Positions 6,256-43,050 of a stretch of 50,979 bases of DNA are shown one piece after another. Source of the stretch: a phage. The DNA lies in sequence record PZ445502.1, one strand, 5' to 3'. The translations under genes and the position numbers were made by a program. Below the pieces are notes generated by a model. That model saw nothing but the letters and a program-made list of their open reading frames with translations, searched no databases and had not been told where the DNA came from. How positions within the stretch are numbered: the first letter of the stretch is position 1; each line of letters opens with the position of its first letter.

Positions 6256-7227
6256 ATGGCTAAAAAATACGATGAATTAGATGCTACCATTGTAGCAAAT
6301 CATTTACAGGTTCAGGGCGTTAAGGGTGATGCTTCTGATATGGGTATTTGGACCGCTCAGGAGCTACACAAGATCCGTTCAACGGCATACGAGAAAGAGT
6401 ATCCGGCAGGTTCCGCACTTCGCGTATTCCCTGTAACAAACGAGCTTTCTGATACTGATAAGACTTTTGAGTATCAGACTTTTGATAAGGTTGGCTACGC
6501 GAAAATTATCGCCGACTACACCGACGATCTGCCGACTGTGGACGCGCTGATGACTTCTGAGTTTGGCAAAGTGTTCCGCCTGGGTAACGCTTTTCTGATC
6601 TCCATTGATGAGATTAAAGCAGGTCAGCGAACTGGCAAGAGCCTGTCAACTCGCAAGGCTAACGCTGCGCAAAATGCGCATGATCAGTTGATTAACTTCC
6701 TGGTGTTCAAAGGTTCCAAGCCTCATAAGATCGTTTCCGTTTTCGATCACCCTAACCTTACGAAAATTGTTTCTAAAGGATGGATGAGCCAGGATGGAAA
6801 CACCAAGTTCCCTGATGTGGCAAGCGATGAACTGGAGGCCGCAATCGAAACGATCGAGGAAGTAACAAAAGGCCAGCACCGCGCGACTAGCATCCTGATC
6901 CCGCCGTCCATGCGCAAAGTCCTGACGGTTCGAATGGAAAATACCACTGAAAGTTATCTGGAATACTTCCAGAAGCAAAACGGCGGCATCACTATCGACT
7001 CTATCGCAGAGCTTGAGGATATTGACGGCAAAGGTACTAAAGGTTGCTTGGTTTACGAAAAAGATCCAATGAACATGAGCATTGAGATTCCAGAAGCGTT
7101 TAACATGCTTCCGGCGCAGCCAAAAGACCTTCATTTCAAGGTTCCTTGCACTTCCAAGTGTACTGGCCTTACGATTTACCGTCCGTTTACGATGGTGCTT
7201 ATTACTGGCTTGAAAAAGTCAGTTTAA
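6256..7227 (+). CDS. major capsid protein
   Basis: 323 aa; GGAGG SD; flanked by strong terminators; size and position fit an HK97-fold coat protein. Confidence 0.65.
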   Translation: MAKKYDELDATIVANHLQVQGVKGDASDMGIWTAQELHKIRSTAYEKEYPAGSALRVFPVTNELSDTDKTFEYQTFDKVGYAKIIADYTDDLPTVDALMTSEFGKVFRLGNAFLISIDEIKAGQRTGKSLSTRKANAAQNAHDQLINFLVFKGSKPHKIVSVFDHPNLTKIVSKGWMSQDGNTKFPDVASDELEAAIETIEEVTKGQHRATSILIPPSMRKVLTVRMENTTESYLEYFQKQNGGITIDSIAELEDIDGKGTKGCLVYEKDPMNMSIEIPEAFNMLPAQPKDLHFKVPCTSKCTGLTIYRPFTMVLITGLKKSV

Positions 7228-30554: not shown

Positions 30555-30594
30555 CACTTTTTGTTAAAACTTGCGCGATGGATTGCGCCATAAT
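30550..30594 (+). promoter_or_regulatory. motif-class promoter (motif, 22 nt, CATAAT)
   Basis: overlaps the stop TAG; GCGC inverted repeat in the spacer. Confidence 0.5.
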
Positions 30595-30633: not shown

Positions 30634-31359
30634 ATGGCTAAAGATATTTTAGATAAAGACACCCATGACGCATTCGTTAGCTTTGAGCAGTTGGAGAGAG
30701 AAACATTTATAGGGAATGCCCTTGCAACTGGAGGCCATTACCAGGCAGTAAAGCCAAATCAATATTATAAGGTAAGCGGCAACCGATACGCTGGAAGCAC
30801 TACGCCGGACGTTGTGCGCGATATGTGGAGCACACCTCAAGAGATCGTGGAGTGGATGGAATCAGAATTTGGCGAATACGATCTCGACGCGGCAGCAAGC
30901 CAGGAAAACGCAGTTTGCGAGAAGTTCTATAGCAAGGAAACAAACTGCTTAAAGCGTTGGTGGGGTAGCAACAAGCACGTATGGCTTAACCCGCCGTACA
31001 GCAACCCAACTCCATTTATCAAGAAAGCAATTGAGCAAATGGAGCACAACAACCAAATTGATGTTTTGTTGCCATCCGACAACTCTACAGCATGGTTTTA
31101 TGAGGCGCAGAAAAACGCGGCTGAAATCATCTGGATCACTGGCGAGGTTTACGAAGAGGGGGGAGTGGAATATTCCCGCACCGGAAGAATCGCCTTTGTG
31201 TCTGGATTGACTGGCGAGCCTGTACAGGGCAACAATAAGGGGAGCGTGATTTTTGTCATGCGTAAACTTAAAGAAGGCGAAGAGCAGAAAACGCGATACG
31301 TTAAGATCAGCGATATTTGTCCTTCTGTTACCGAACGCCGAGCACGCAAACGGAGTTAA
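30634..31359 (+). CDS. DNA N6-adenine methyltransferase (Dam-like)
   Basis: 241 aa; NPPY motif (WLNPPYSNP). Confidence 0.75.
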   Translation: MAKDILDKDTHDAFVSFEQLERETFIGNALATGGHYQAVKPNQYYKVSGNRYAGSTTPDVVRDMWSTPQEIVEWMESEFGEYDLDAAASQENAVCEKFYSKETNCLKRWWGSNKHVWLNPPYSNPTPFIKKAIEQMEHNNQIDVLLPSDNSTAWFYEAQKNAAEIIWITGEVYEEGGVEYSRTGRIAFVSGLTGEPVQGNNKGSVIFVMRKLKEGEEQKTRYVKISDICPSVTERRARKRS

Positions 31360-31603: not shown

Positions 31604-31643
31604 CACTTTTTGTTAAAACGCCCGGCCTAGTGTCGGGCATAAT
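31599..31643 (+). promoter_or_regulatory. motif-class promoter (motif, 22 nt, CATAAT)
   Basis: GCCCGGC...GTCGGGC inverted repeat in the spacer. Confidence 0.5.
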
Positions 31644-34817: not shown

Positions 34818-34862
34818 AATATACCCGACACAAGGTCGGGAGTTTTAACAAAAAATGCTATT
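34818..34862 (-). promoter_or_regulatory. motif-class promoter (motif, 22 nt, TATATT)
   Basis: CCCGAC...GTCGGG inverted repeat in the spacer. Confidence 0.5.
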
Positions 34863-35052: not shown

Positions 35053-35374
35053 CGCCCATCTCCCCTATTCTAGCCATATCCCTGATCCAGTCGTTGCGCA
35101 TACCATCCAGGCTATACAATTCGAATCCGAAAGGCCGCTTTGACGATCCTTTGGACCAGTATTTTCCGCAGACTCCATCTATATAACCAGCCGTCATCAT
35201 TCTTGCGCAAAATTCCTTAGATGCAAGGCTGGCGAACATTCGCGGCGTAAGTCCGGCGGCCCGTGCGAGCCGCTCACATTCTCTATGCTGATAGATAAAT
35301 TTGGCTATGTGCTGCCTGTTAAACCAATCGTATGACTCACACCATTTATACAGATCAAGCAAAAACATAATCAT
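34979..35374 (-). CDS. hypothetical protein
   Basis: 131 aa; ATGA-type coupling to the upstream NTPase gene. Confidence 0.45.
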   Translation of the reverse strand: MIMFLLDLYKWCESYDWFNRQHIAKFIYQHRECERLARAAGLTPRMFASLASKEFCARMMTAGYIDGVCGKYWSKGSSKRPFGFELYSLDGMRNDWIRDMARIGEMGDDELFQAKANRQDLEALRRKFNIT

Positions 35375-36951
35375 CCCAGCAGTATTGGATTGACAAAAAT
35401 AACACCATTAATCACACAAACATAATTTCTTTCTTCCAGCATTGGCAGTAAGTGCCCTTCTATCCTTTTCATTACGCCAGCCTGACCAACGAAAGGTTTT
35501 ACCTTTCTCGCTGATTCGTACAGGGCGCGAATATTCAGGATCCCTTTGTTAGCCTTGCCGTGCCTCGTGATCAATTCAATCAATTTACCCATTTCAGCAT
35601 CATCACCAGCATAACCAGAAGCATTGGCGGCGCTAATGTATGTTTTGCTCAATTCCTGAAACATGATCAACGCCTCTTGCATTGTTTCCACGTCGATCTC
35701 TTTCGACTTCTGCGGGTATCCGGCAGGATTAAACCAGTTACGGATAACATGCAGGACGGAAGCAAGCCTGATCACCTGTTTATCCATTTTACCCAGCGCA
35801 CCGCGTAACATTGTATGAGAATACTTTCCTCCGTCTGCAAGATGCGGTTCCATATCCTGGCGAGCAATGTTGAGCACTCGCATAGCTGAACGGCTTATTT
35901 TCAGCGATATATTTGATTCGCTCATGATGTTATGCACCAATTGATAATATTGGGCTTTCAATTCAGAATCCACCGCCTCATAGGTAGAATCACCATTTTC
36001 ATCAATGAATGAGCGACGGCCTAAGAATGATTCCTCGCGGACCAACAAAAAACGCTCACTAACACCGATGCCTCGCGAACCAGCGTCCATGATTCCGCTT
36101 ATCGTTTCATCCTGGGCTATAACGCTCATACATCCAAGCGCGCGAAAACTCATATTATTGTCAGCATTAGCACGGGCAATTGATACGTGACCATTATCCC
36201 ACGCCTTAAGCACTAACTCACTGTTAGTCTTCCTTTCGCTATTTGCATAGGTCAAACCTAACAGACTGTTAATACTTGTTGCTTCATCAGAAATTACGGC
36301 AAAGTTACCTTGCTTGTTGTTGATTTTCGCCAAGCCTTCTGGAGTTGTATCTGAAACAGGAAAAGTTATATCACACATTTTTTCCAGCTTTTCCTCCAGA
36401 TCCTCTTTTTCCTGGTATAGAGATTCCATATCAGCGCCGGATCTTTCGCTTTTCATCTCCTTTGCAAGACCTGCCAGCTTTGCCTGTATTTTCTTTCTTT
36501 CCTTGCGGCGTTGCTCGTTGATCTTCTCAACTTCCGCAATCATCGGAGCAATAGCCATGCTGTTGATCGCAGATTTACCAGTTGACGGCGGCTGGCTTGT
36601 AACGACGTAAAGCGCAGTCGGCTGATCGGTTCCGTGATAGTCAACCGTAAAGCGTCCAAGCATAGCGGCAGAAATGCAGCCGATAAAGTGCATGTAAGCC
36701 GATGATTCAGGGAATTGAACGGATCGCGCAATGCTGCGTGATAACTTGCCGACAACATCAATATCATTACCAAGAGAAATAACGGGGTAGCGATCGTGAC
36801 CGCTATTCACATCCTTTACGTCGCCCCAAAAGCTGGACGACTGGCGATAGCCGTTAGCCTGAATTGATACGCGAACTGGTGAAAGGTTCTGGCTTTCAGC
36901 CATAGCGATTATTTGCTGTGGAGTTAATTTGTTCGTTTCTAATGAAAACAT
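35371..36951 (-). CDS. P-loop NTPase of unknown function
   Basis: 526 aa; Walker A SQPPSTGKSA and Walker B-like FAVISDEAT; AAGGAG SD; largest early gene. Confidence 0.55.
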   Translation of the reverse strand: MFSLETNKLTPQQIIAMAESQNLSPVRVSIQANGYRQSSSFWGDVKDVNSGHDRYPVISLGNDIDVVGKLSRSIARSVQFPESSAYMHFIGCISAAMLGRFTVDYHGTDQPTALYVVTSQPPSTGKSAINSMAIAPMIAEVEKINEQRRKERKKIQAKLAGLAKEMKSERSGADMESLYQEKEDLEEKLEKMCDITFPVSDTTPEGLAKINNKQGNFAVISDEATSINSLLGLTYANSERKTNSELVLKAWDNGHVSIARANADNNMSFRALGCMSVIAQDETISGIMDAGSRGIGVSERFLLVREESFLGRRSFIDENGDSTYEAVDSELKAQYYQLVHNIMSESNISLKISRSAMRVLNIARQDMEPHLADGGKYSHTMLRGALGKMDKQVIRLASVLHVIRNWFNPAGYPQKSKEIDVETMQEALIMFQELSKTYISAANASGYAGDDAEMGKLIELITRHGKANKGILNIRALYESARKVKPFVGQAGVMKRIEGHLLPMLEERNYVCVINGVIFVNPILLG

Positions 36952-36979: not shown

Positions 36980-37025
36980 ATTTTAACGGCCCAATACTAC
37001 CCCGTTTTGTCAAAAAGTGCTATTT
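36980..37025 (-). promoter_or_regulatory. motif-class promoter with TTGACA in the motif, 22 nt, TAAAAT
   Basis: minus strand AATAGCACTTTTTGACAAAAC; hairpin GGGCCGTTAAAATTTACGGCCC encloses the -10 box. Confidence 0.5.
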
Positions 37026-37241
37026 GATCCGCTCTATTGCAACCAGAAGTCGATCAGGATGGCGGTCGCTATAGCATTCCCCCATGATCCCATCCTTAAA
37101 CGTAAAGTAAAGAGCCTTATGATATGAAAAACCAATCAGCCAACCTACCGCCGTTTTTTTGATGGGCCTGACTATATCGCCAGGCTTGAAAGTCTTTGTG
37201 GTAGAATTCGTTACTTTGTAACGGTTTTCACTGTTTATCAC
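37020..37241 (-). CDS. hypothetical protein
   Basis: 73 aa; stop TAG inside the motif. Confidence 0.4.
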   Translation of the reverse strand: MINSENRYKVTNSTTKTFKPGDIVRPIKKTAVGWLIGFSYHKALYFTFKDGIMGECYSDRHPDRLLVAIERIK

Positions 37242-37624
37242 AGATATTTACCCTCAAAAAGATAACAGCCGCCAGCAGAGAATCCGACCTCTTCACGGTA
37301 CAGGTTCCAGCGGTCGCCGCACTCATCAAAAACATAACCCGCAACGCTTCCAAGCGGTCGCCCTTTCTCGATCTGGTATCGCTTTCCCTGCTTAAAGTGC
37401 TTTTTGCACGGCATGTTATGATCTACAAACGTGCAAAGAACGGTTTTTGTGTTAATGACGCGGTAATCATCTCGGTTTGCTGGAAGCCAGCGGCTACCCT
37501 TAACAAGCGTCTTAACCTGGAATTCTTCCACCTCGATCACATCATTACTTCCTGCAATCTTCTGATAAACCGTTTTAAATCGGCCTTTCATCAATACGTT
37601 GGTTTCATTACAGATAACATTCAT
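37238..37624 (-). CDS. hypothetical protein
   Basis: 128 aa; overlaps the downstream start by 4 nt. Confidence 0.4.
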   Translation of the reverse strand: MNVICNETNVLMKGRFKTVYQKIAGSNDVIEVEEFQVKTLVKGSRWLPANRDDYRVINTKTVLCTFVDHNMPCKKHFKQGKRYQIEKGRPLGSVAGYVFDECGDRWNLYREEVGFSAGGCYLFEGKYL

Positions 37625-37652
37625 GATCAGATCTCCTTTGTTTGTTCGATGT

Positions 37653-37699
37653 GATTATGCCAGGTTTTTACACCTGGCTTTTAACAAAAAGTGCTATTT
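37653..37699 (-). promoter_or_regulatory. motif-class promoter (motif, 22 nt, CATAAT)
   Basis: GCCAGGT...ACCTGGC inverted repeat abutting the -10 box. Confidence 0.5.
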
Positions 37700-38410
37700 T
37701 GAGTTTGACTCAAAGACGGCGCGAGCAAAGCCGCGCGGAGTGAGGGAGCGGATCATCTTTGTGCGCGATGACTTGCCGCCAGTTTTGGCCCAGCCTGGAT
37801 TATCTTTGTCTTTCTCTTTCGGCAGGATTAAAGCGCGTGGAGGAATAACAAAGCCGTTGCCAGTCCAGAGGCATGTTTTCTTAAAATAGCGATCCCGCGC
37901 CGGAATAATATCAGGGAAGTCGGGATGTTTATCATCTTCCGGCAGATAGCCAGCGTAATCGCACGGATGGAACGTATAATCAGGCTTTCGCCATAACGTT
38001 GACAACTTGCCAACCGGATTTTCGATCATGTATGGAACACCGAAATAATCAGCTATATCAGCCGCGATTCTGCAAGTGTCGGCGGCCTCATCCTGGAAAG
38101 ATGGATTTTTAAGGCGCTTTTTAGCCCAATGGCGAGATCCGCTATTTGCAAGGTCGGTGCATGGTGGGAAGGCCATAATAAAATCAGGATTGCCCCACTC
38201 ATTATTGATTGCCTTAACATAAAAAGCATCATCAATCCAGACGTTAACGTATTCGATATTCTCATGCTGTATGCGCACTGACTGGTAATCACCGTGATCG
38301 CCGCCGTCAGCATTAAAGCAAATGCACTTATAGCCATTATCAGCCCAATCTTTAACGGCTTTACCAGATCCATCAAATAGGGAGAATATTAAACCTTTAT
38401 ACATCGTCAT
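37694..38410 (-). CDS. putative DNA methyltransferase (C5-cytosine-methyltransferase-like motifs)
   Basis: about 238 aa from ATG 38410 with GAGGTA SD; FSLFDGSG, FPPC and ENPVG motifs resembling motifs I, IV and VI. Confidence 0.4.
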   Translation of the reverse strand: MTMYKGLIFSLFDGSGKAVKDWADNGYKCICFNADGGDHGDYQSVRIQHENIEYVNVWIDDAFYVKAINNEWGNPDFIMAFPPCTDLANSGSRHWAKKRLKNPSFQDEAADTCRIAADIADYFGVPYMIENPVGKLSTLWRKPDYTFHPCDYAGYLPEDDKHPDFPDIIPARDRYFKKTCLWTGNGFVIPPRALILPKEKDKDNPGWAKTGGKSSRTKMIRSLTPRGFARAVFESNSK

Positions 38411-38414
38411 TACC

Positions 38415-38639
38415 TCAAAACGGAAAACAGCGCGCACAACCAGGATCGAAATCGCATCCACAATCATTAACAATCATAGTGGGATCTGCAAATATTGCGC
38501 TTGATTCAAGATCCATATCCATATCACCTAAAGCCTCATCAAGAGTCTTAATTTTATATGCCACTTCAAGCGCCGACTCTTTATTTAGTCCGGCATCTTC
38601 TGCCATTTGAAGGCGCTCAAAAAATCCGTCTTGACTCAT
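38415..38639 (-). CDS. hypothetical acidic protein
   Basis: 74 aa; AAGGGG SD. Confidence 0.4.
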   Translation of the reverse strand: MSQDGFFERLQMAEDAGLNKESALEVAYKIKTLDEALGDMDMDLESSAIFADPTMIVNDCGCDFDPGCARCFPF

Positions 38640-38752
38640 CGCATAATCCCCTTAATAACAGCCAAGATAATAGCCAGGCCAGCAGCAGTAACCAAAAAGC
38701 CAACCGCGCCAATAATCGAATAAAAAAAGAAATCAATAGCTTTATCTATCAT
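38636..38752 (-). CDS. small hydrophobic membrane protein
   Basis: 38 aa, not in the ORF track; GAGGTGG SD; single TM helix; ATGA overlap with the downstream gene. Confidence 0.35.
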   Translation of the reverse strand: MIDKAIDFFFYSIIGAVGFLVTAAGLAIILAVIKGIMR

Positions 38753-38764
38753 TTCCACCTCATT

Positions 38765-38786
38765 TAAAAGGCGGCAAAACGCCGCC
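38765..38786 (-). terminator. terminator-like hairpin
   Basis: minus strand GGCGGCGTTTTGCCGCC followed by TTTT. Confidence 0.4.
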
Positions 38787-38793
38787 ATATTAA

Positions 38794-39021
38794 TTAAAGA
38801 GCACGCCAACTTTGAATATAGAAAGCGTTTTCTTCCAGTAATTCTTTTAACTGATCTTTATTGCATTTGCGCACCTTACCTCCTGGATGAATACCAATAA
38901 GATAGCCGCCCTTTCCCTCGGTGATAGTGATTTGGCTAATTCCGCAGGACTTATCAAGTTTTACAGCCACGCGGTGATGAGCGTCAATAGTTGACATAAT
39001 GTTTAAAACTTTTGCTTTCAT
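38794..39021 (-). CDS. hypothetical protein
   Basis: 75 aa ORF. Confidence 0.4.
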   Translation of the reverse strand: MKAKVLNIMSTIDAHHRVAVKLDKSCGISQITITEGKGGYLIGIHPGGKVRKCNKDQLKELLEENAFYIQSWRAL

Positions 39022-42547: not shown

Positions 42548-42587
42548 CACTTTTTGTTAAAACGCCAGGCGCGAAGCCTGGCATAAT
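42543..42587 (+). promoter_or_regulatory. motif-class promoter (motif, 22 nt, CATAAT)
   Basis: GCCAGGC...GCCTGGC inverted repeat abutting the -10 box. Confidence 0.5.
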
Positions 42588-43006: not shown

Positions 43007-43050
43007 ATAGCACTTTTTGTTAAAACTCAAAAGCGATAACCAGGCATAAT
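43005..43050 (+). promoter_or_regulatory. motif-class promoter (motif, 22 nt, CATAAT)
   Basis: shares CCAGGCATAAT with the promoters near 42543 and 37653. Confidence 0.5.

What the first reader, a model, noticed from the sequence alone, without database searches (positions are those of the whole stretch)
37694..38410. Second DNA-methyltransferase-like gene in addition to Dam
Besides the Dam-like N6-adenine methyltransferase (30634..31359, NPPY motif), the early minus-strand operon encodes a ~238-aa protein with FSLFDGSG, FPPC and ENPVG motifs resembling motifs I, IV and VI of C5-cytosine methyltransferases, though it is short for that family. Two methyltransferases suggest broad anti-restriction by self-methylation. 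If its specificity were CCWGG it could also act on the CCWGG sites in the promoter hairpins.
Basis: partly seen in the sequence, partly recalled or inferred. Interest (0 to 1): 0.5.

Follow-up and report, generated by a model that had tools for sequence, protein, structure and literature searches.

The report
Known mini cytosine methyltransferase of T1-like phage
The gene is real and encodes an unusually small DNA cytosine-C5 methyltransferase that public records of related T1-like coliphages already annotate, and whose 89%-identical counterpart has been shown by experiment to make 5-methylcytosine and to trigger the retron Ec86 defence, so the finding is correct but ordinary.

Summary
The window is a T1-like coliphage (Drexlerviridae, Warwickvirus), 99% identical to phage tunus over 37000-39000. 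The ORF exists and carries the motifs described. Its likely start is the second ATG (38404, 236 aa), not 38410.

The protein is 89% identical to the "Dcm-like" gene of phage KarlJaspers. The equivalent gene of KarlJaspers' close relative K42 was shown (Wang et al. 2023 preprint; Cell Rep 2024) to put 5mC on retron Ec86 msDNA and to trigger that defence.

My added evidence concerns specificity. Relatives that carry the gene keep CCWGG at the expected frequency (O/E 0.8-1.3). Relatives without it are lower (0.06-0.87), and phage IME347 has 4 sites against 72 expected. Dam and GATC show the same pattern.

Protection is narrow, not broad. The genome lacks 12 six-base palindromes entirely and is depleted in CCSGG. 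Only 2 of about 10 promoter-like hairpins contain CCWGG.

Verdict: already known, low interest.

The parts
37694..38404 (-). Coding sequence of the mini C5-cytosine DNA methyltransferase ('Dcm-like'). It encodes 236 aa from the second ATG, with the stop codon at 37694-37696.
   Evidence: ORF list and sequence; PHROG 757, E = 1.4e-85; 89% identity to KarlJaspers bas06_0055; C5-methyltransferase fold.
38413..38416 (-). Shine-Dalgarno GAGG, 8 nt upstream of ATG 38404. It overlaps the TGA stop codon of the upstream 74-aa ORF.
   Evidence: Sequence. [quoted passage not shown] On the sense strand of KarlJaspers, position -9 is a G of this GAGG. This mapping is my inference, because the K42 sequence is not held.
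38363..38386 (-). Motif I, FSLFDGSG (AdoMet-binding FxGxG loop after strand 1).
   Evidence: DGSG is invariant in 21 close relatives. It aligns with motif I of E. coli Dcm in the profile comparison and of DNMT3B.
38159..38170 (-). Motif IV, FPPC, holding the catalytic cysteine (Cys84 in 238-aa numbering; Cys82 of K42 Dcm). The loop continues as PPCTDLANSG, which aligns with the GSPCNDLSN loop of DNMT3B.
   Evidence: Cys84 is invariant in 52 diverse family members. Aligned to the PC motif of DNMT3B and of Dcm. The C82A-containing quadruple mutant of K42 Dcm is inactive.
38009..38023 (-). Motif VI, ENPVG (Glu130; Glu128 of K42 Dcm).
   Evidence: Glu130 is invariant in 52 members. Aligned to ENV of Dcm.
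37766..37858 (-). Short variable segment (residues about 185-215) between the KKTCLW strand and motif IX. It occupies the position of the target-recognition domain, is about 30 aa long, and has the lowest model confidence.
   Evidence: Residues 201-210 have mean pLDDT 59. Relatives show two loop types, DNPGW and GYSxQ. Calling it the target-recognition domain is inferred from its position.
37703..37753 (-). Motif IX-like IRSLTPRG helix (37730-37753) and the C-terminal helix ending in Asn236 (37703-37705; motif X-like).
   Evidence: BLASTP aligns IRSLTPRGFARAV with RRLTPRECARLM of E. coli Dcm. R221, S222, P225 and G227 are nearly invariant.
30634..31359 (+). Companion Dam-type N6-adenine methyltransferase (the 'first' methyltransferase).
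   Evidence: Pfam PF05869, E = 1.5e-61. GATC O/E is 1.0 in the window, whereas relatives without Dam have 0.15-0.36.
37654..37687 (-). Promoter-like cassette TTGTTAAAA-GCCAGG-TGTAAAAA-CCTGGC-ATAAT directly after the stop codon. Its stem holds two CCWGG sites and would be a substrate of the enzyme if its specificity is CCWGG.
   Evidence: Conserved in KarlJaspers. Any effect of methylation is untested.

Best explanation
The gene encodes an active, orphan, unusually small (236 aa) DNA cytosine-C5 methyltransferase.

Mechanism (inferred from the family's established chemistry). The enzyme uses S-adenosylmethionine, bound by the FDGSG loop. The target cytosine is flipped out and attacked by Cys84 of the FPPC loop. 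Glu130 of ENP protonates N3. The product is 5-methylcytosine in double-stranded DNA.

Target and benefit. The most likely target is the inner C of CCWGG. The gene sits among short genes of unknown function on the minus strand, and its product would methylate replicating phage DNA. The 129 CCWGG sites would then resist EcoRII-type (CCWGG) and SsoII/Ecl18kI-type (CCNGG) endonucleases, while the phage Dam protects GATC. All other type II sites are handled by site avoidance.

Cost. The same activity betrays the phage to retron Ec86/Eco1. That retron's msDNA stem carries a CCTGG, and its methylation activates the abortive-infection effector.

What is shown and what is inferred.
- Shown here: ORF, motifs, fold, orthology, site statistics.
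- Shown in the literature for an orthologue: 5mC formation, dependence on C82/E128/K175/K176, retron triggering, dispensability of the gene.
- Inferred: CCWGG specificity and the anti-restriction benefit.
For: Identity of the phage and of the gene. The window is 99.2% identical to phage tunus over 37000-39000. Relatives annotate this gene as 'dcm', 'DNA-cytosine methylase' or 'Dcm-like C5 cytosine methyltransferase'.

Family and fold.
- PHROG 757 'DNA methyltransferase', E = 1.4e-85.
- AlphaFold model with pLDDT 87.5 and pTM 0.87.
- Best Foldseek PDB hits are the DNMT3B and DNMT3A catalytic domains, E about 1e-6.

Conserved residues. Cys84 and Glu130 are invariant, and F81, P82, N131, P132, K177, R221, S222, P225 and G227 nearly invariant, in 52 members at 33-56% identity. 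One family member is fused to a D12 Dam-type DNA methyltransferase.

Orthology to the studied enzyme. The protein is 89% identical without gaps to KarlJaspers bas06_0055, a 711-bp gene in the same gene order. K42 is a KarlJaspers strain with 95.4% genome identity and a 711-bp dcm. For that gene, LC-MS showed 5mC on msDNA, a C82A/E128A/K175A/K176A mutant was inactive, and four escape mutants hit dcm. Those four residues are C84, E130, K177 and K178 here.

Specificity.
- Markov O/E for CCWGG is 0.82-1.32 in 13 sequences that carry the gene and 0.06-0.87 in 8 that lack it (Mann-Whitney p = 2e-5; not corrected for shared ancestry).
- The complete genome of IME347 has no such gene and 4 CCWGG against 72 expected.
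- Dam and GATC behave the same way, which serves as a positive control.
- Within the window CCWGG (O/E 1.02) and GATC (1.01) are spared, while CCSGG (0.29) and many 6-bp palindromes are purged.
Against: - No activity or specificity was measured for this protein.
- In the preprint the CCWGG specificity of K42 Dcm was assumed by analogy with host Dcm. It was supported only by loss of defence when the msDNA CCTGG was mutated.
- The protein has no detectable similarity to E. coli Dcm outside the shared catalytic motifs (BLASTP E = 0.67; hhalign probability 1.6%), so specificity cannot be transferred by homology.
- Neither Pfam PF00145 nor a family profile searched against PDB sequences recognises it.
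- T1 lacks the gene yet is only mildly depleted in CCWGG (83 observed against 100 expected).
- Most comparison loci are partial (11-21 kb) and related by descent.
- Host Dcm also methylates CCWGG in most E. coli strains, so the benefit of a phage copy is inferred.
- BASEL saw no simple link between methyltransferase genes and restriction resistance, though it tested no CCWGG enzyme.
Confidence: 0.8

Rival explanations
1. The protein is an active C5 DNA methyltransferase, but its target is not CCWGG. It could have a shorter or looser site, as might be expected from a target-recognition segment of only about 30 aa and a DNMT3-like architecture. The CCWGG pattern in genomes would then reflect host Dcm or shared ancestry.
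For: - Specificity was never mapped in the preprint.
- There is no similarity to the Dcm target-recognition domain.
- The nearest structures are the CpG-specific DNMT3 enzymes.
- msDNA from dcm-positive MG1655 with an empty vector had little 5mC, so the phage enzyme does something host Dcm does not do efficiently.
- T1 lacks the gene but keeps 83 CCWGG.
Against: - Presence or absence of the gene tracks CCWGG tolerance across relatives. IME347 is nearly free of CCWGG.
- CCSGG, GGCC, AGCT and many C-containing 6-mers are depleted in the window, which argues against a broad CC, CG or GC specificity.
- Mutating either C of the msDNA CCTGG abolished retron defence.
Confidence: 0.13
2. The protein is a C5-methyltransferase-fold enzyme with another substrate or another chemistry. 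Candidates are an RNA m5C methyltransferase (Dnmt2-like), or an enzyme that transfers a different group, such as the carboxymethyl group of the C5-carboxymethyltransferase 8yf3.
Against: - LC-MS detected 5mC in DNA for the orthologue.
- The four ORFs flanking the gene give only a DUF3987 (helicase-like) Pfam match and no carboxy-SAM synthase.
- A family member is fused to a Dam-type DNA methyltransferase.
- The link between gene presence and a DNA site frequency makes sense only for a DNA enzyme.
Confidence: 0.04
3. The protein is a catalytically inactive remnant or a pure DNA-binding protein. It would be kept for a role other than methylation.
For: It is very short. No clear QxRxR motif VIII can be recognised in the sequence. 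Motif II has Asn33 where distant relatives have Asp.
Against: The catalytic Cys and Glu are invariant over about 2000 cluster representatives sampled at 33-56% identity. The orthologue is active, and its activity depends on these residues.
Confidence: 0.03

Closest known systems
Dcm of Escherichia phage K42 / KarlJaspers (Drexlerviridae, Hanrivervirus), the trigger of retron Ec86 (Eco1). Source: Wang et al., bioRxiv 10.1101/2023.08.16.553469; published as Cell Rep 2024;43:114857.
   Same: 89% identical over all 236 residues with no gaps. Same gene neighbourhood: DUF3987 helicase, two small ORFs, dcm. Same downstream promoter-like hairpin. The four residues mutated in that study are all present (C84, E130, K177, K178).
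   Different: 25 substitutions, mostly in residues 24-122. The segment from residue 123 to the end is nearly identical. The phage genus differs (Warwickvirus). Nothing has been measured for this allele.
Mammalian DNMT3A/DNMT3B catalytic domain (closest solved structures, e.g. 6u8p, 6kdt)
   Different: Only 17-18% identity. About 45 residues shorter. No evidence of DNMT3-type oligomer interfaces or of CpG specificity. It is a phage enzyme with no regulatory domains.
E. coli Dcm / M.EcoRII (CCWGG-specific C5 methyltransferases, Pfam PF00145)
   Same: Probably the same product (C-5mC-WGG), and the same order of catalytic motifs.
   Different: 236 aa against 472 aa. No significant sequence similarity (BLASTP E = 0.67). 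No Pfam PF00145 match. No homologous target-recognition domain. No linked vsr gene. 'Dcm-like' is a functional nickname, not orthology.
Phage-encoded orphan Dam methyltransferases (T1 Dam, PF05869)
   Same: Same strategy: the phage carries its own copy of a host-type solitary methyltransferase activity. The corresponding site is spared from avoidance in genomes that carry the gene and depleted in those that lack it.
   Different: Different fold class, base and site (N6-adenine, GATC).

Membership tests
DNA cytosine-C5 methyltransferases (class defined by conserved motifs I-X and fold) | Motif I, FxGxG, the AdoMet-binding loop | tested here: met
   FSLFDGSG at residues 9-16. DGSG is invariant in 21 relatives. 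It aligns to motif I of DNMT3B and of Dcm.
DNA cytosine-C5 methyltransferases (class defined by conserved motifs I-X and fold) | Motif IV Pro-Cys with the catalytic cysteine, and motif VI ENV with the glutamate | tested here: met
   FPPC (Cys84) and ENP (Glu130). Both residues are invariant in 52 diverse members.
DNA cytosine-C5 methyltransferases (class defined by conserved motifs I-X and fold) | Motif VIII (QxRxR) and motifs IX/X after a target-recognition domain | tested here: inconclusive
   The motif IX-like IRSLTPRG aligns to RRLTPRE of Dcm. A C-terminal Asn236 may stand for the GN of motif X. No QxRxR is recognisable; the conserved Y175-x-K177-K178 strand and R141 may replace it. The target-recognition segment is only about 30 aa.
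DNA cytosine-C5 methyltransferases (class defined by conserved motifs I-X and fold) | Three-dimensional fold of the C5-methyltransferase catalytic domain | tested here: met
DNA cytosine-C5 methyltransferases (class defined by conserved motifs I-X and fold) | Formation of 5-methylcytosine in DNA | not testable with these tools
   Reported by LC-MS for the K42 orthologue; the closely related KarlJaspers gene is 89% identical to this one. Not measured for this protein.
Pfam PF00145 (DNA_methylase) as a sequence family | Score above the Pfam gathering threshold | tested here: not met
   No hit even at E <= 10. Only 4 of 52 relatives give weak hits, best E = 0.0039. NCBIfam gives none. A family profile finds no C5 methyltransferase among PDB sequences.
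Dcm / M.EcoRII group (CCWGG-specific) | Homologous target-recognition domain and overall sequence similarity to Dcm | tested here: not met
   BLASTP E = 0.67, with only the motif IX patch aligned. hhalign probability 1.6%.
Dcm / M.EcoRII group (CCWGG-specific) | Methylation of the inner cytosine of CCWGG | tested here: inconclusive
   Indirect only. CCWGG O/E is 0.82-1.32 in relatives with the gene and 0.06-0.87 in those without. The msDNA CCTGG is required for retron triggering.
Phage triggers of retron Ec86/Eco1 | Orthology to K42 Dcm with the catalytic residues intact | tested here: met
   89% identity to the KarlJaspers gene. C84, E130, K177 and K178 are conserved. Actual triggering was not tested.
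Orphan (solitary) methyltransferase rather than part of a restriction-modification system | No cognate restriction endonuclease gene next to it | tested here: met
   The neighbours are small ORFs without Pfam matches and a DUF3987 helicase-like gene. The same arrangement is found in FritzSarasin and KarlJaspers.

The most novel reading that the evidence does not exclude
These 210-260-aa phage enzymes form a separate lineage of 'minimal' C5 DNA methyltransferases. The lineage has about 2000 clusters at 50% identity, is invisible to Pfam, and has a DNMT3-like catalytic loop. Its members would read a 5-bp site (CCWGG) with a recognition segment of only about 30 residues, perhaps as a dimer on the palindrome or with a preference for hairpin or stem-loop DNA such as msDNA. 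In this phage the enzyme could also methylate the CCWGG stems of two of its own promoter-like hairpins and so affect gene expression. None of this has been mapped: neither the specificity nor the recognition mode of the family has been determined at base or atomic resolution in anything I could read.
Probability: 0.12. Interest if true: 0.5.

Novelty: already known. Interest (0 to 1): 0.15.

Why it matters
For this window it matters little. The gene is annotated in dozens of near-identical public genomes, and its orthologue has been characterised.

It is useful in three practical ways.
- It predicts that this phage is sensitive to retron Ec86/Eco1, which is native to E. coli BL21.
- It predicts that the phage DNA carries 5mC and is therefore a target for modification-dependent nucleases such as McrBC- or MspJI-type enzymes.
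- It explains why CCWGG and GATC are the two short palindromes the genome does not avoid.

The comparison I ran is cheap independent support for the CCWGG specificity that the retron study assumed. Gene presence tracks tolerance of the site, with Dam and GATC as an internal control.

The family is also a reminder that Pfam-based screens miss a very large group of phage cytosine methyltransferases.

Tried and rejected
- Pfam and NCBIfam scans of the protein gave nothing, even at E <= 10.
- A single-sequence search of PDB sequences gave only DNMT3B at E = 0.6.
- A 52-sequence profile against PDB sequences gave no methyltransferase at all, so family assignment had to rest on structure.
- BLASTP and hhalign against E. 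coli Dcm tested true Dcm orthology, which I rejected.
- The afdb50 fold library was not available.
- The published Cell Reports paper is not held, so I relied on the preprint. I cannot say whether specificity was mapped in the final version.
- Literature searches for methylome or restriction data on T1-like phage cytosine methylases found nothing beyond the retron work and BASEL. One search failed on term length.
- Finding the KarlJaspers accession took three guesses.
- I considered a CCNGG or other broad specificity and rejected it, because CCSGG is strongly depleted in the window.
- I considered that the 257-aa form from TTG 38473, annotated in some relatives, is the real product. I rejected it because homologues do not conserve the extension and the Shine-Dalgarno spacing favours ATG 38404.
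- Locus L016 was dropped from the comparison because the slot where the gene would lie is cut off by the contig end.

Full report
**What the window is.** The 2 kb around the finding is 99.2% identical to Escherichia phage tunus and 97-99% identical to many other T1-like coliphages (Drexlerviridae, Tempevirinae, Warwickvirus). In those records the gene under the finding is called 'dcm: DNA-cytosine methylase', 'DNA methyltransferase' or, in the BASEL phage FritzSarasin, 'Dcm-like C5 cytosine methyltransferase'. The feature is therefore already annotated in public data.

**The observation.** A minus-strand ORF ends at 37694 and contains FSLFDGSG, FPPC and ENPVG exactly as described. It also holds IRSLTPRG, which BLASTP aligns with the motif IX patch RRLTPRECAR of E. 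coli Dcm.

  - The GAGG ribosome-binding site (38413-38416) is 8 nt from the second ATG (38404) and only 2 nt from the first.
  - In KarlJaspers the upstream ATG is out of frame and the gene is 711 bp, starting MYKG.
  - Alignments to diverged relatives begin at base 7 of the query.
- A 257-aa form from TTG 38473, annotated in some relatives, overlaps the upstream ORF and is not conserved.
- The Dam gene at 30634-31359 is confirmed (PF05869, E = 1.5e-61).

**What the protein is.**

- *Sequence libraries.* These do poorly. There is no Pfam or NCBIfam match even at E <= 10. Only 4 of 52 relatives touch PF00145 weakly. A 52-member profile finds no methyltransferase among PDB sequences. PHROG 757 'DNA methyltransferase' matches at 1.4e-85.
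- *Family size.* The family is large and uniform in length: 2063 proteins in the 90% database, none with a precomputed Pfam domain; 2085 representatives at 50% identity, mostly 210-260 aa; and 1497 GenBank phage records covering Escherichia, Klebsiella, Salmonella, Vibrio, Arthrobacter and other hosts and several phage families.
- *Structure.* An AlphaFold model built on 21 sequences is confident (pLDDT 87.5, pTM 0.87).
  - Foldseek against the PDB puts the DNMT3B and DNMT3A catalytic domains first (E about 1e-6).
  - The viral structure library returns phage 'DNA-cytosine methylases'.
- *Conserved residues.* Across 52 members at 33-56% identity the catalytic Cys84 and Glu130 are invariant. 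F81, P82, N131, P132, R141, K177, R221, S222, P225 and G227 are nearly so.
- *Loop and recognition segment.* The catalytic loop PPCTDLANSG aligns with the GSPCNDLSN loop of DNMT3B. The segment where a target-recognition domain should lie (about residues 185-215) is short, variable and of low confidence.
- *Fusions.* One relative is fused to a D12 Dam-type DNA methyltransferase.

**Link to experiment.** Wang et al. (bioRxiv 10.1101/2023.08.16.553469; cited elsewhere as Cell Rep 2024;43:114857) isolated escape mutants of the Drexlerviridae phage K42 on retron Ec86. K42 is a KarlJaspers strain with 95.4% genome identity.

- All four escapers hit a 711-bp dcm gene or the position 9 bp upstream of it.
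- Expressing Dcm was toxic only in cells with the retron.
- LC-MS showed 5mC on msDNA with wild-type Dcm but not with a C82A/E128A/K175A/K176A mutant.
- Mutating the CCTGG in the msDNA stem abolished defence.
- 34 of 35 Ec86-sensitive phages in their collection encode Dcm.

I fetched KarlJaspers. Its 711-bp 'Dcm-like' gene lies in the same gene order and is 89% identical (211 of 236, no gaps) to the window protein. The four mutated residues correspond to C84, E130, K177 and K178 here. The window gene is thus an orthologue of a characterised enzyme. One K42 escaper lost a 2.3-kb region that includes dcm, so the gene is dispensable in the laboratory.

**Specificity.** The preprint assumed CCWGG by analogy with host Dcm. 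That analogy has no basis in homology. The protein shows no significant similarity to E. coli Dcm beyond the catalytic motifs. I therefore looked for a genomic signature.

- *Within the window.*
  - Many type II sites are avoided. Twelve 6-bp palindromes have zero copies against 4.5-16.3 expected: GATATC, CTGCAG, AGCGCT, GGCGCC, GCATGC, GCCGGC, CCGCGG, CGGCCG, CAGCTG, CACGTG, CCATGG and CGTACG.
  - GGATCC, AAGCTT and AGGCCT have one copy each.
  - CCSGG has 7 copies against 24 expected.
  - GATC (317 against 314) and CCWGG (129 against 126.5) sit exactly at expectation.
- *Comparison set.* I collected 19 IMG/VR loci around the neighbouring DUF3987 helicase and added T1, KarlJaspers and IME347.
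- *Result for CCWGG.*
  - Thirteen sequences with the gene have CCWGG O/E of 0.82-1.32.
  - Eight without it have 0.06-0.87 (Mann-Whitney p = 2e-5, not corrected for phylogeny).
  - The complete genome of IME347 has Dam but no dcm-like gene, and holds 4 CCWGG against 72 expected. IME347 is a Drexlerviridae phage isolated on BL21(DE3). That strain carries retron Ec86 and is dcm-negative (established strain genotype).
- *Result for GATC.* The same logic holds as an internal control. Loci without Dam have GATC O/E of 0.15-0.36, and loci with Dam about 0.8-1.1.
- *Loop variants.* Both variants of the variable loop (DNPGW and GYSxQ) occur in CCWGG-tolerant loci.
- *Weak points.* T1 has no gene and an O/E of 0.83. 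Most loci are partial. The sequences are related by descent.

**How it most likely works.** The enzyme is an orphan: no nuclease gene is adjacent. It lies among short genes of unknown function on the minus strand. It would methylate CCWGG on replicating phage DNA, complementing Dam at GATC.

- This gives narrow protection against EcoRII-type enzymes. Combined with the purge of CCSGG in this lineage, it would also protect against CCNGG enzymes of the SsoII/Ecl18kI type; this last step is my inference.
- The rest of the type II repertoire is met by site avoidance, so 'broad anti-restriction by self-methylation' is not what the genome shows.
- BASEL found no simple relation between these genes and resistance to its six restriction-modification systems, but none of those is CCWGG-specific.
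- The price of the gene is recognition by retron Ec86.

**The promoter-hairpin idea.** A cassette TTGTTAAAA-N19-CATAAT recurs: 6 exact copies, and 15 with up to 3 mismatches against 3.9 expected. Several copies lie 30-70 nt before a start codon on the same strand, and many carry a short inverted repeat in the spacer. The stems differ between copies (GCCCGG, CCCGAC, GCGGGG and others). Only 37659-37678 and 42564-42582 are GCCAGG/CCTGGC. If the enzyme is CCWGG-specific it will methylate those two stems, but nothing suggests a general regulatory link.

**Verdict.** Novelty: already known. Interest: low. The residual open points concern the family as a whole: how so small an enzyme recognises its site, and the formal mapping of that site.

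Noticed in passing
window 30561-30594(+), 31610-31643(+), 37654-37687(-), 42554-42587(+), 43017-43050(+), plus looser copies at 34818, 39852, 41156, 47043, 48337: A recurring intercistronic cassette, (TAG)CACTTTTTGTTAAAA(C) - short inverted repeat - (C)ATAAT. There are 6 exact matches to TTGTTAAAA-N19-CATAAT, and 15 with up to 3 mismatches against 3.9 expected. Several copies lie 30-70 nt before a start codon on the same strand. The TTGTTA-to-CATAAT distance is 22 nt, too long for a standard sigma-70 spacer, and the stem sequence differs from copy to copy. The equivalent element before T1 dam is annotated in GenBank as a terminator.
   Followed up: partly
whole window: Extreme avoidance of 6-bp palindromes. 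Twelve have zero copies against 4.5-16 expected, and GGATCC, AAGCTT and AGGCCT have one each. EcoRV sites number 0 and EcoRI sites 4. This may explain why the near-identical BASEL phage FritzSarasin is reported as highly resistant to the tested restriction-modification systems.
   Followed up: partly
whole window; loci L005, L007, L008, L011, L012, L019: CCSGG is almost absent in this lineage (7 in 51 kb; 0-2 per locus), while T1 has 65 and other dcm-bearing relatives have 1-2 per kb. With CCWGG methylated, such genomes would hold almost no cleavable CCNGG site. This suggests selection by SsoII/Ecl18kI-type enzymes, which is an inference.
   Followed up: partly
L026 (Escherichia phage vB_EcoS_IME347, MH051918, 1-50000): This Drexlerviridae phage was isolated on BL21(DE3), which is dcm-negative and carries retron Ec86. 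It has Dam but no dcm-like gene, and only 4 CCWGG against 72 (Markov) or 95 (base composition) expected. This looks like the alternative solution to the same restriction pressure, and it avoids the retron trigger.
   Followed up: yes
loci L014, L015, L021-L024: Relatives that lack a Dam gene within the fetched 14-21 kb are strongly depleted in GATC (O/E 0.15-0.36). L021-L024 are also depleted in CCWGG (0.22-0.28). Whole genomes were not checked.
   Followed up: no
L020 (IMGVR_UViG_2974600923_000001), dcm-like match near 6649: The dcm-like reading frame aligns only over residues 5-190, so it may be truncated or interrupted there. Elsewhere in the family one member carries an HNH_2 endonuclease domain (P0259), and Shigella phage 2019SD1 matches in three pieces. 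This hints at insertions in the gene.
   Followed up: no
window 35371-36951(-): The 526-aa neighbour annotated as 'putative helicase' is a DUF3987 protein (E = 1.7e-44). It is conserved next to the dcm slot from T1 to Salmonella phages and served here as the anchor for the comparison.
   Followed up: partly
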